A DNA stretch of 63,776 bases, the filler included, from Methanobacteriota archaeon (GTDB taxonomy: Archaea; JACRDV01), in assembly GCA_024860865.1 (NCBI GenBank). It is 7 parts of 7 records of this genome, joined end to end, with 100 filler letters (N's around TTAATTAATTAA, not from the genome) between each part and the next. Parts side by side here need not be neighbours in the genome. Positions count along the whole stretch, not along the records: positions 25,289 to 31,778 come from JACRDV010000154.1; 6 more parts are not named here. One strand, 5' to 3'. The number at the start of each line of letters is the position of its first letter. Positions within the stretch are counted from its first letter, which is position 1. Made by a program: the position numbers and the translations under genes. Of this stretch, positions 27,968-28,443 are shown one piece after another. Below the pieces are notes generated by a model. That model had not been told where the DNA came from, searched no databases, and worked only from the letters and a program-made list of their open reading frames with translations.

Positions 27968-28443
27968 TTATAGTTCGATACTAGGCTCATCTTTTATTGA
28001 CGAAAAGATAACATTTGTTCGGGCTTCTTTTATCCCTGGTAAAGAGATTAATTGCTGCTCAACGAACTCTTTCAAATCATTCATATCTTTAGCTAGAATT
28101 TTGGCCACTATATCATATTCTCCAACTACTGTATAAACTTCCGACACTCGTTTCATTGTGCTCAGTTGTTGGGCTATGTTAAGAGTATCGTTTGCATTAG
28201 ACCGAATTGATACGACGGCTGAGATAGCATAGCCAACATTGTTAGGATTAACAAGTGCTGTAAATCTCCGAATTACGCCATCGCGTCGGAGTTTTTTCAC
28301 GCGTTTATTTGCGCTCGCCCTGACTAGCAGGAACGAAATACGCTAACGTCGCTTACTCCAACTGCCTTTCCGATCTCTACAAACGGTGTGCGGGCATCTT
28401 TTTGTAGGATTTCTATAATTCTTCTATCGAGGTCGTCAACCAT
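27968..28443 (-). CDS. Lrp/AsnC transcriptional regulator, two exons (28338-28443 + 27968-28308), 148 aa after splicing
   Basis: Exon 1 reads MVDDLDRRIIEILQKDARTPFVEIGKAVGVSDVSV. Removing 28309-28337 gives ...VSVYKRVKKLRRDGVIRRF..., an intact HTH plus RAM domain (VVGEYDIV); 106+341=447 nt. Confidence 0.88.
28309..28337 (-). other. Candidate bulge-helix-bulge mRNA intron (29 nt)
   Basis: Sense strand: GUUA-GCGU-AU|U-UCGUUCCUG-CUAGU-CAGGGCGA-GCGC-AA|A-UAAACG. Central 4-bp helix GCGU/GCGC, two 3-nt bulges, inner and outer helices. Carries an in-frame UAG. Confidence 0.8.

What the first reader, a model, noticed from the sequence alone, without database searches (positions are those of the whole stretch)
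27968..28443. Transcription factor split by a candidate BHB mRNA intron: possible splicing-controlled Lrp/AsnC regulator
Seen: the gene looks frameshifted, but the disruption is one 29-nt, GC-rich (17/29) insert at 28309-28337 in the HTH recognition helix. On the sense strand it folds as outer helix (G)UUA/UAA, central 4-bp helix GCGU/GCGC, bulges AU|U and AA|A, and inner hairpin UCGUUCCUG-CUAGU-CAGGGCGA. Cutting after the second nucleotide of each bulge rebuilds codon U|AU and gives GVSDVSVYKRVKKL, with exact Lrp spacing and a full 148-aa protein. Unspliced RNA hits an in-frame UAG inside the insert (39-aa peptide). The intron ends in AA, like 5 of the 7 tRNA introns in this window. Established: archaeal EndA cleaves BHB motifs regardless of tRNA context and RtcB ligates; the mRNA example I know is crenarchaeal cbf5. 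Inference: this organism uses its tRNA-splicing machinery as an on/off switch for a regulator, conceptually like HAC1/XBP1 non-spliceosomal splicing (short frameshifting intron, RtcB/tRNA-ligase joining, different nuclease). The regulator sits between mtd and an nrdD-like gene.
Basis: partly seen in the sequence, partly recalled or inferred. Interest (0 to 1): 0.95.

Follow-up and report, generated by a model that had tools for sequence, protein, structure and literature searches.

The report
tRNA-type intron inside an archaeal regulator gene
An archaeal Lrp/AsnC regulator gene is interrupted by a 29-base insert shaped like the introns this organism cuts out of its tRNAs, which would make it a rare case of a protein-coding gene that needs tRNA-style splicing.

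Summary
On the minus strand, an Lrp/AsnC gene (27968-28443) carries a 29-nt insert (28309-28337). The insert and its flanks fit a strict bulge-helix-bulge (BHB) motif. Cutting after the second base of each bulge gives a gapless 148-aa protein. The predicted junction scores best of 17 alternative cuts, and an intact homologue has the same eight junction residues.

The insert stands unchanged in contigs from three studies. A relative about 78% identical has the same two separate ORFs on what appears to be one 2595-nt contig. Its exon-1 similarity stops exactly at the predicted 5' splice site. Three tRNA genes in the window carry six BHB introns, some at non-canonical positions.

Weak points: loose BHB motifs are common by chance, and the fold is not unusually stable. 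No RNA data, host genome or relative's DNA was available.

Verdict: a real EndA-type pre-mRNA intron, probability about 0.75. Published cases I found are crenarchaeal cbf5 and the Haloferax HVO_1309 5'UTR. It is a new member of a known kind.

The parts
28338..28443 (-). Exon 1 of the Lrp/AsnC gene: ATG at 28443-28441, 35 codons plus the first base of the split codon. It encodes most of the HTH.
   Evidence: Pfam HTH_AsnC-type E 1.2e-13, profile 2-33/42. 28/36 identical and 36/36 positive to the relative's 43-aa ORF P0153.
28309..28337 (-). Predicted 29-nt BHB intron, 17/29 G+C. It contains the in-frame TAG (28326-28324) that ends the unspliced 39-aa product.
   Evidence: Unique in the window at up to 3 mismatches. 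Present without indel or substitution in contigs of 3 studies.
27968..28308 (-). Exon 2: the last two bases of the split codon, the end of the HTH, and the RAM/AsnC ligand-binding domain. Stop codon at 27970-27968.
   Evidence: Pfam AsnC_trans_reg E 3e-17. 81/102 identical, 92/102 positive, no gaps to the relative P0002. The four strain differences are 3 synonymous plus S65T.
28305..28346 (-). The whole hBHBh' motif. Outer helix 28346-28344 with 28307-28305. Central 4-bp helix 28343-28340 with 28314-28311. 5' bulge 28339-28337, cut after 28338. 3' bulge 28310-28308, cut after 28309. Inner hairpin 28336-28315.
   Evidence: Read. My scanner gives outer helix 3 and inner helix 6. Constrained BHB energy is -10.2 kcal/mol against an MFE of -16.7. 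Shuffle null: 67 of 400000.
28448..28452 (-). Shine-Dalgarno-like GGTGA, 4 nt upstream of the exon-1 ATG.
   Evidence: Read. No comparable motif lies directly upstream of the internal GTG at 28300. Its function is an inference.
27035..27862 (-). Downstream neighbour on the same strand: F420-dependent methylene-H4MPT dehydrogenase (Mtd). Starts 105 nt after the regulator's stop.
   Evidence: Pfam MTD E 3.2e-126.
28922..31204 (+). Divergently oriented neighbour: anaerobic ribonucleotide reductase NrdD with an ATP-cone. It is 478 nt from the regulator's start.
   Evidence: Pfam NRDD E 1.2e-118, ATP-cone E 2.3e-17.
57146..57291 (+). Context: tRNA-Gln(UUG) gene with three BHB introns. They lie at 57163-57193 (31 nt, D-loop), 57215-57230 (16 nt, position 37/38) and 57252-57272 (21 nt, T-loop).
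   Evidence: ARAGORN returns a clean 73-nt cloverleaf only after all three are removed by coordinates. BHB parameters.
57494..57615 (+). Context: tRNA-Leu(CAA) gene with a 29-nt BHB intron in the D-loop (57511-57539).
   Evidence: ARAGORN after in-silico removal. BHB parameters.
43882..43999 (-). Context: tRNA-Sec(UCA) gene with two inserts. One is 13 nt at 37/38 (43958-43946). The other is 15-17 nt in the T-loop.
   Evidence: Rfam tRNA-Sec 35.5 bits, E 2e-5 on the 501-nt stretch, with two inserts. ARAGORN calls tRNA-SeC after removal.

Best explanation
The 29-nt insert is a genuine archaeal bulge-helix-bulge (BHB) intron in the coding region of an Lrp/AsnC-family regulator gene.

In the pre-mRNA, seven exon-1 bases pair with the 3' end of the intron and the first bases of exon 2. 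An intron-internal hairpin closes the far side. This presents two 3-nt bulges separated by a 4-bp helix.

The host's tRNA-splicing endonuclease (EndA) cuts after the second base of each bulge. An RtcB-type ligase joins the exons. The mature mRNA then encodes a normal 148-aa regulator with an intact HTH and RAM domain. Unspliced RNA yields only a 39-aa fragment.

Shown here: the motif, the exact in-silico junction, the presence of the insert in independent assemblies, the split in a relative, and BHB introns in the host's tRNA genes.

Inferred: cleavage, ligation and expression. I take splicing to be constitutive maturation, as is assumed for cbf5. I do not take it to be a regulated switch.
For: 1. 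Geometry. The motif is a strict hBHBh': a 4-bp central helix, two 3-nt bulges on opposite strands, an outer helix of 3 bp and an inner helix of 6-8 bp. The cut rule, between bulge residues 2 and 3, is the published one (PMC2738675, section 8).

2. Junction. Removal gives 447 nt, or 148 aa. The product scores 183.2 bits against an HMM of 49 single-domain homologues and aligns over 146 positions. Its first 70 residues, which span the junction, align without a gap. Among 17 alternative 29-nt cuts, the BHB cut scores highest (183.2 against 174.3-181.7). The intact homologue P0006 has the same 8 residues across the junction.

3. Chance. With the exons fixed and the insert shuffled, 67 of 400000 trials give an equally good BHB at any of the 7 frame-restoring offsets. 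1191 of 400000 give a minimal one.

4. Not an artefact. The insert is identical, with no indel, in contigs from 3 studies. X1 has an 888-nt contig with 0 differences. X2 has a 2701-nt contig with 11 differences over 912 nt. X3 has a 294-nt contig with 4 differences. No contig skips the insert.

5. Selection. Strain differences in the gene are 3 synonymous plus one S-to-T. A relative has the two halves as separate ORFs, each on a 2595-nt contig. P0153 matches exon 1 at 28/36 identical and 36/36 positive. P0002 matches exon 2 at 81/102 identical with no gaps. P0153 is identical over the last 19 residues before the predicted 5' splice site. None of the 3 residues after the site is identical (window FRSC-stop, relative YIL-stop).

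6. Host competence. Three tRNA genes in the window carry 6 BHB introns, including D-loop and T-loop positions. Their helix values are (2,10), (7,3), (5,5), (2,5) and (6,1) for the five measured, which bracket the regulator's (3,6).

7. Translation signals. A GGTGA lies 4 nt before the exon-1 ATG. Nothing similar precedes the internal GTG.
Against: - No RNA evidence. No listed run that holds the locus is on record as RNA, so cleavage and ligation are not shown.
- Loose BHB motifs are as frequent in the window (1442) as in shuffles (mean 1417).
- The local fold is not unusually stable: z = -0.70, and 48 of 200 shuffles fold as well.
- The canonical BHB (-10.2 kcal/mol) is 6.5 kcal/mol weaker than the MFE. 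The MFE keeps the central helix, the 5' bulge and the hairpin, but slips the outer helix by one base so the 3' bulge collapses.
- The outer helix is only three A-U pairs.
- The relative's DNA could not be fetched. Its interruption is known only from two ORF translations, no compensatory base changes could be examined, and that P0153 and P0002 lie on one contig is an inference from equal contig lengths.
- The strain variants are too close to test the intron: 1.2% divergence predicts about 0.35 changes in 29 nt.
- EndA and RtcB were not seen. No genome is held, and neither gene is among the 42 window ORFs I scanned.
Confidence: 0.75

Rival explanations
1. Regulated switch. The intron is real, but its removal is conditional. 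The cell would gate production of the active regulator through EndA/RtcB activity, or through competition between the translating ribosome and BHB folding. This would be analogous in logic to HAC1/XBP1.
For: The intron is not a multiple of 3 and carries an in-frame stop, so unspliced RNA cannot make the regulator. The canonical BHB competes with a more stable slipped fold. It lies only about 100 nt into the ORF. In a coupled transcription-translation system, that could make splicing efficiency sensitive to conditions; this is an inference. The host gene is itself a regulator.
Against: No data on expression or splice ratios exist. No dedicated sensor is implied. The same enzyme must constitutively process many tRNA introns in this organism. 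For the two published archaeal mRNA cases, the passages I read describe no regulation (PMC7714728; PMC10485636). A frameshifting intron with a stop is also what a non-regulatory intron looks like.
Confidence: 0.1
2. Pseudogene. A 29-bp insertion inactivated the regulator, and the BHB-like fold is a coincidence.
For: The gene is formally frameshifted. Loose BHB motifs are common by chance. The fold is not unusually stable. No transcript evidence is available.
Against: Both halves remain open and similar in a relative that differs at about 21% of residues. There are no gaps, substitutions are mostly conservative, and similarity ends exactly at the predicted splice site. Strain differences are 3 synonymous and 1 conservative. 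An equally good BHB at a frame-restoring position arises in only 67 of 400000 shuffles. The junction reproduces an intact homologue's sequence.
Confidence: 0.07
3. Split gene with two independent products. One would be a stand-alone RAM-domain protein translated from an internal start. The other would be a 39-43-aa N-terminal peptide. No splicing would occur.
For: Exon 2 has an in-frame GTG at 28300, giving the 110-aa ORF. Gene callers report both halves as separate proteins here and in the relative. From memory, not tested here: stand-alone RAM-domain proteins exist in archaea and bacteria.
Against: The called start is not conserved: V39 here and V47 in the relative. No Shine-Dalgarno-like motif precedes the GTG at 28300. 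A 39-aa peptide that ends inside the last HTH helix (Pfam profile 33/42) has no obvious function, yet it is 36/36 positive against the relative right up to the junction. This reading does not explain the BHB geometry or the exact junction.
Confidence: 0.05
4. Translational recoding. A -1 frameshift or a ribosomal hop across the insert joins the two frames without RNA splicing.
For: The exon-2 frame is open back to 28342. A -1 shift between 28342 and 28327 would therefore give one continuous protein.
Against: That product would carry an insertion of about 10 residues in the last HTH helix. None of the 49 homologues has an insertion there. No X-XXY-YYZ slippery heptamer and no matching take-off and landing codons are present, by direct reading. 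In the relative, the exon-1 frame stops three codons after the junction with a different sequence.
Confidence: 0.02
5. Assembly or sequencing artefact.
For: None beyond the apparent frameshift.
Against: The stretch across the insert is identical in Logan contigs of three studies, with no indels and no joined form. The best holder, X1, may be the window's own source. X2 and X3 carry a distinguishable strain.
Confidence: 0.01

Closest known systems
cbf5 pre-mRNA intron of Desulfurococcales and Sulfolobales (Watanabe 2002 and Yoshinari 2006 seen only as citations; Yokobori 2009, PMC2738675: abstract and section 8 part 1 read)
   Same: A BHB-type intron inside a protein-coding region, cut between residues 2 and 3 of the bulges by the tRNA-splicing endonuclease and then ligated. 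The intron interior varies between relatives while the exon-paired parts are kept. Gene callers mis-annotate the gene as split.
   Different: The host gene differs: an Lrp/AsnC regulator, not the pseudouridine synthase Cbf5. The motif here is a strict hBHBh', whereas most cbf5 introns are described as unconventional or relaxed BHB. The organism is an uncultivated, AT-rich groundwater archaeon, not a cultured hyperthermophile. Splicing was shown by cDNA for cbf5 and is not shown here.
BHB intron in the 5'UTR of HVO_1309 in Haloferax volcanii (Schwarz et al. 2020, PMC7714728, passages read; PMC10485636, passages read)
   Same: An mRNA substrate of the archaeal splicing endonuclease outside tRNA and rRNA. 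It is a short intron (46 nt) whose BHB folding energy (-14.9 kcal/mol) is in the range of the -10.2 found here.
   Different: That intron lies in the untranslated leader and does not interrupt a reading frame. Here the intron breaks a codon in the HTH, so splicing is obligatory for the protein.
Non-canonical tRNA introns of archaea with broad-specificity EndA, types (alpha-beta)2 or epsilon2 (PMC5829648, passages read)
   Same: Same motif, same size range and same A-rich 3' bulge as the six tRNA introns in this window (13-31 nt, 4 of 6 ending AA). One tRNA-Leu intron is also 29 nt.
   Different: The host RNA is a messenger. There is no sequence similarity to the tRNA introns, by direct comparison of the sequences printed.
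IRE1-dependent HAC1/XBP1 splicing (mentioned in PMC13149111 passages; RtcB link in the abstract of PMC8718801, listing; other details recalled)
   Same: Spliceosome-independent removal of a short, frame-changing intron from the mRNA of a transcription factor, by an endonuclease that leaves ends for a tRNA-type ligase.
   Different: The nuclease (IRE1) and recognition motif (paired stem-loops) are different, and that system has a demonstrated stress-regulated trigger. None of these was found or tested here. The likeness is one of logic only.
Lrp/AsnC (FFRP) transcription regulators
   Same: The spliced product has the full two-domain architecture, an N-terminal HTH_AsnC-type domain and a C-terminal RAM/AsnC_trans_reg domain, at the usual length of about 150 aa.
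   Different: Its closest intact relatives are only about 40-43% identical over exon 2. No other family member with an intron turned up in my literature searches.

Membership tests
Archaeal BHB (EndA-dependent) intron | A central 4-bp helix flanked by two 3-nt bulges on opposite strands | tested here: met
   GCGU/GCGC with bulges AUU and AAA.
Archaeal BHB (EndA-dependent) intron | Flanking helices h and h' of at least 2 bp (the strict hBHBh' form) | tested here: met
   h is 3 bp, all A-U. h' is 6 contiguous pairs, or 8 with one bulge. RNAfold prefers a one-base slip of h.
Archaeal BHB (EndA-dependent) intron | Cutting between bulge residues 2 and 3 and joining the ends gives the functional RNA | tested here: met
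   The in-silico product is a gapless 148-aa Lrp/AsnC protein. It has the best HMM score of 17 offsets.
Archaeal BHB (EndA-dependent) intron | Cleavage by EndA and ligation observed as spliced RNA or a circular intron | not testable with these tools
   No listed run that holds the locus is on record as RNA.
Archaeal BHB (EndA-dependent) intron | The host encodes EndA and an RtcB-type ligase | not testable with these tools
   No genome is held. Neither gene is among the 42 window ORFs scanned. Their presence is inferred from six tRNA introns.
Archaeal BHB (EndA-dependent) intron | Intron position kept in relatives, with the BHB maintained by compensatory changes | tested here: inconclusive
   A relative has the same split, and similarity stops at the 5' splice site. 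Its DNA was not obtainable, so no base pairs could be compared.
cbf5 intron family | The intron lies in the cbf5 (pseudouridine synthase) gene | tested here: not met
   The host gene is Lrp/AsnC.
Lrp/AsnC (FFRP) regulators | N-terminal HTH_AsnC-type domain | tested here: met
   Exon 1 alone gives E 1.2e-13 over profile 2-33/42. The spliced protein aligns without a gap through the HTH of 49 homologues.
Lrp/AsnC (FFRP) regulators | C-terminal RAM / AsnC_trans_reg domain | tested here: met
   PF01037 at E 3e-17, profile 2-72/73.
IRE1-type regulated unconventional splicing (HAC1/XBP1) | A dedicated stress-activated endonuclease and condition-dependent splicing | not tested
   No RNA data and no genome. 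No IRE1-like protein is expected in archaea (recalled). Only the frame-changing short intron matches.

The most novel reading that the evidence does not exclude
Splicing of this intron may be rate-limiting and condition-dependent. The canonical BHB competes with a more stable slipped fold, and with ribosomes that reach it about 100 nt after the start codon. The amount of active regulator would then track the cell's EndA/RtcB capacity or its translation rate. That would tie a transcription factor lying next to C1-metabolism (mtd) and dNTP-synthesis (nrdD) genes to RNA-processing status. It would be an archaeal counterpart in logic to HAC1/XBP1. It would also suggest that BHB introns in coding genes are under-annotated across uncultivated archaea.
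Probability: 0.1. Interest if true: 0.9.

Novelty: new member of a known kind. Interest (0 to 1): 0.62.

Why it matters
Published BHB introns in archaeal messenger RNAs are very few. In the literature I could search there are two: cbf5 in some Crenarchaeota, and a 5'UTR intron in Haloferax. A 2023 review states that more likely remain to be discovered (PMC10485636).

A second coding-region case has three consequences:
- It is in a different gene class, carries a textbook strict BHB, and sits in an uncultivated groundwater archaeon with heavily disrupted tRNA genes. That suggests the tRNA-splicing machinery is used on mRNAs more widely than is known.
- It shows concretely how such genes get mis-annotated as frameshifted or split in metagenome-assembled genomes. 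Both halves are filed as separate proteins in the public protein collection.
- It offers a small, easily testable substrate: a 29-nt intron that any EndA type should cut.

If splicing also turned out to be conditional, it would be the first post-transcriptional switch of this type in archaea.

Tried and rejected
Searches that led nowhere:
- Host genome. None is held, so EndA, RtcB, cbf5 and a genome-wide BHB scan could not be done.
- RNA evidence. No RNA holder is listed.
- The relative's DNA.
- A small search on the genome behind L001 showed that control genomes carry no handles. I therefore had no route to TACK genomes.

Tools that missed real features:
- ARAGORN and Rfam at gathering score find no tRNA in the window. 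The tRNAs appear only after in-silico intron removal or at relaxed thresholds.

Controls that weaken the case:
- Thermodynamic distinctiveness of the fold: rejected (z = -0.70).
- Rarity of loose BHB motifs: rejected (1442 hits against a shuffle mean of 1417).

Other negative results:
- A naive scan for BHB removals that merge ORFs gave 82 hits, almost all inside or between ordinary genes. It yielded no second convincing split gene.
- Is the insert a repeat or mobile element? It occurs once in the window at up to 3 mismatches.
- P0027, a 105-aa homologue starting at the same position as P0002, begins with V and sits on a 977-nt contig. I read it as a contig-end fragment, not a second split gene.
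- The bacterial-type promoter and terminator scan was uninformative for an archaeon.
- GC-rich unannotated stretches at 49130-49315 and 23517-23764 have no Rfam match at E <= 1.

Taxonomy: only weak leads. TgtA resembles clusters from Bathyarchaeota, Thermoproteota and Nitrososphaerota. Mtd resembles Methanobacteriota clusters.

Supplementary files of papers were not opened. Those of PMC2738675 list cbf5 intron sizes, which I did not see.
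Full report
**1. Observation**

The region 27968-28443 holds an Lrp/AsnC-type gene on the minus strand. A 39-aa ORF starts at the ATG at 28443 and stops at a TAG at 28326-28324. A second ORF, in the frame offset by 2 nt, runs to the stop at 27970-27968.

Pfam assigns the first piece to HTH_AsnC-type (E 1.2e-13, profile positions 2-33 of 42). It assigns the second to AsnC_trans_reg (E 3e-17). Removing 28337-28309 (29 nt, 17/29 G+C, in a window of 36% G+C) gives 447 nt, which is 148 aa plus a stop.

On the sense strand the motif reads as follows:
- outer helix UUA/UAA (28346-28344 with 28307-28305);
- central helix GCGU/GCGC (28343-28340 with 28314-28311);
- bulges AU|U and AA|A;
- an intron-internal hairpin of 6 contiguous pairs, or 8 with one bulged U.

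The neighbours are Mtd (27035-27862, same strand, downstream) and NrdD with an ATP-cone (28922-31204, divergent).

**2. Is it more than chance?**

Two controls go against a naive reading. First, RNAfold finds the local fold no more stable than shuffles: MFE -16.7 kcal/mol, z = -0.70, with 48 of 200 shuffles folding as well. The canonical BHB, at -10.2 kcal/mol, is not the MFE. The MFE keeps the central helix, the 5' bulge and the hairpin, but slips the A-U outer helix by one base.

Second, a loose hBHBh' definition (outer helix >=3 bp, central helix 4 bp, inner helix >=3 bp, G-U allowed, intron 14-150 nt) hits 1442 times on both strands of the window. Ten dinucleotide shuffles average 1417. 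The motif as such is therefore not evidence.

What is improbable is its placement. Only 7 cut offsets of a 29-nt deletion keep the conserved V and R codons on either side. With the exons fixed and the 29 nt shuffled, a minimal BHB at any of those offsets arises in 1191 of 400000 trials. One as good as the real motif (inner helix >=6) arises in 67 of 400000.

**3. The junction**

I built an HMM from 49 single-domain homologues of 136-175 aa, taken from the 150 listed hits. I left out the roughly 300-aa two-domain proteins and the fragments.

The in-silico spliced protein scores 183.2 bits against this HMM and aligns over 146 positions. Its first 70 residues, which span the junction, align to the homologues without a gap. 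Of 17 alternative 29-nt deletions (offsets -8 to +8), the BHB-predicted cut scores highest: 183.2 against 174.3-181.7. The margin is small, 1.5 bits, because the two affected positions are variable.

The intact homologue P0006 carries exactly the same eight residues across the junction. In the 49 homologues the junction residue Y is the second commonest at that column, with 9 of 49.

**4. Not an artefact**

Logan contigs from three studies cover the insert with no indel and no substitution in it:
- X1: an 888-nt contig with 0 differences. This run may be the window's own source.
- X2: a 2701-nt contig with 11 differences over 912 nt.
- X3: a 294-nt contig with 4 differences.

No contig joins across the insert. 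The four differences inside the gene all lie in exon 2. Three are synonymous and one is S65T. At 1.2% divergence, an unchanged 29-nt intron is uninformative.

**5. A relative has the same split**

Among 5.8 billion clustered proteins, the only close relative of exon 2 is P0002. It is 102 aa, 81/102 identical, 92/102 positive, without gaps, and on a 2595-nt contig. The only relative of exon 1 is P0153, a 43-aa ORF also on a 2595-nt contig. That both lie on the same contig is my inference from the equal lengths.

P0153 is 28/36 identical and 36/36 positive to exon 1. It is identical over the last 19 residues up to the predicted 5' splice site. After the site the two read-throughs differ completely (FRSC-stop here, YIL-stop there).

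The interruption is therefore old enough for about 21% protein divergence, yet both halves stay open and conservatively substituted. The discontinuity falls exactly where the BHB predicts. This is the strongest argument against a pseudogene.

It is protein-level evidence only.

A HMMER search of 1.84 billion cluster representatives found no intact orthologue above 43% identity. Intron-less alleles are therefore unknown.

**6. The host uses BHB introns heavily**

ARAGORN and Rfam at gathering score find no tRNA in the window. After removing BHB-bounded segments by coordinates, ARAGORN returns three tRNAs:
- a clean 73-nt tRNA-Gln(UUG) with three introns: 57163-57193, 57215-57230 and 57252-57272;
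- a tRNA-Leu(CAA) with a 29-nt D-loop intron at 57511-57539;
- a tRNA-Sec(UCA) at 43882-43999 with two introns.

The tRNA-Sec also matches Rfam tRNA-Sec at 35.5 bits, with two inserts. The five introns I measured pass the same test of 4-bp helix plus two 3-nt bulges. Their (outer, inner) helix values are (2,10), (7,3), (5,5), (2,5) and (6,1). The regulator's motif is (3,6). Four of the six introns end in AA, as the regulator's does.

Introns at D-loop and T-loop positions are associated in the literature with broad-specificity (alpha-beta)2 or epsilon2 endonucleases (PMC5829648, passages). The enzyme itself could not be examined. No genome is held, and neither EndA nor RtcB is among the 42 window ORFs I scanned.

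**7. Mechanism**

My best reading, with probability about 0.75, has four steps:
- The pre-mRNA folds the BHB.
- EndA cuts after 28338 and after 28309.
- An RtcB-type ligase joins the exons.
- The mature mRNA encodes a normal 148-aa Lrp/AsnC regulator.

Unspliced RNA gives only a 39-aa fragment that ends in the last HTH helix. The motif, junction, conservation and host competence are shown. Cleavage, ligation and expression are inferred. A GGTGA 4 nt before the ATG, with nothing similar before the internal GTG at 28300, fits one translated gene better than two.

Rivals:
- Regulated switch (0.10): not excluded, but no evidence.
- Pseudogene (0.07).
- Two independent products, including a stand-alone RAM-domain protein (0.05). 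The called starts differ between the two organisms.
- Recoding by a -1 frameshift or a hop (0.02). The exon-2 frame is open back to 28342. The product would carry about 10 extra residues in the last HTH helix, where none of 49 homologues has an insertion. I see no slippery site.
- Artefact (0.01).

**8. Comparison with what is known**

By passages read, a BHB had been found in one mRNA (cbf5) before 2020. Schwarz et al. then added the 46-nt 5'UTR intron of HVO_1309 (PMC7714728). [quoted passage not shown]

For cbf5, the cut lies between bulge residues 2 and 3, most of the motifs are unconventional BHBs, and the intron interior is highly variable (PMC2738675, section 8). All of this parallels what I see here, except that this motif is strict.

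Five full-text searches found no report of a BHB intron in an Lrp/AsnC gene. The library lacks most subscription journals.

The HAC1/XBP1 comparison is one of logic only: a short frame-changing intron in a transcription-factor mRNA, with tRNA-type ligation. The nuclease, the motif and the proven regulation all differ (other details recalled).

**9. Organism**

The organism is unknown. The DNA occurs in groundwater and other metagenomes. The gene content is archaeal:
- TgtA, Mtd and PurL/F/D;
- futalosine-type menaquinone genes;
- a tetrathionate-reductase-like molybdoenzyme;
- a SelD-like gene beside the tRNA-Sec.

Language-model look-alikes of TgtA are commonest in Bathyarchaeota, Thermoproteota and Nitrososphaerota. 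Look-alikes of Mtd are commonest in Methanobacteriota. These are leads only.

**10. Verdict**

The intron reading is well supported in silico but has no RNA proof. The switch reading is untested. This is a new member of a known but very small class. Interest: 0.62.

Noticed in passing
window 43882-43999 (-) and 42718-43662 (+): A tRNA-Sec(UCA) gene carries two introns, one at 37/38 and one in the T-loop. It sits next to an AIR-synthase-family gene that looks like SelD (AIRS plus AIRS_C). The organism therefore probably uses selenocysteine, and even its tRNA-Sec is intron-disrupted.
   Followed up: partly
window 57146-57291 (+) and 57494-57615 (+): tRNA-Gln(UUG) has three introns and tRNA-Leu(CAA) has a 29-nt D-loop intron. 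The first Gln intron and the Leu intron sit at the same D-loop position, with similar exon flanks. Standard tRNA finders miss both genes.
   Followed up: yes
window 25189-25288, 31779-31878, 40271-40370, 42381-42480, 51857-51956, 60547-60646: Six places each hold two 44-nt runs of N separated by 12 bases; these are masked stretches. One pair falls at the end of the ORF 38494-40326. I did not try to recover them.
   Followed up: no
window 37769-41184 (+): A 4Fe-4S ferredoxin-type subunit is followed by a tetrathionate/thiosulfate-reductase-like molybdopterin subunit (610 aa). That ORF ends inside a masked stretch. A 262-aa ORF without a Pfam hit follows. This may be one longer gene, possibly with a Sec codon.
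   Followed up: no
window 14198-20757 (+): A defence-island-like cluster: an AAA ATPase similar to MADS3/PtuA-type proteins, a 1049-aa SNF2-family helicase, and a SWIM zinc-finger protein. It has locally raised G+C of up to 0.61.
   Followed up: no
window 31823-35243 (-): Futalosine-pathway menaquinone genes sit close to the H4MPT gene mtd: a VitK2_biosynth family protein, an MqnE/CofH-like radical SAM protein and a UbiE methyltransferase. The radical SAM protein scores over the cut-offs of both MqnE and CofH.
   Followed up: no
window 21188-21852 (-), 26126-26551, 49759-50348 (-): Several small adjacent ORF pairs look like toxin-antitoxin modules, judged by eye from the translations. No family search was run on them.
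   Followed up: no
window 49130-49315 and 23517-23764: These are G+C-rich stretches (up to 0.60) outside long ORFs. Neither has an Rfam match at E <= 1. They could be unrecognised structured RNAs or further disrupted RNA genes.
   Followed up: partly
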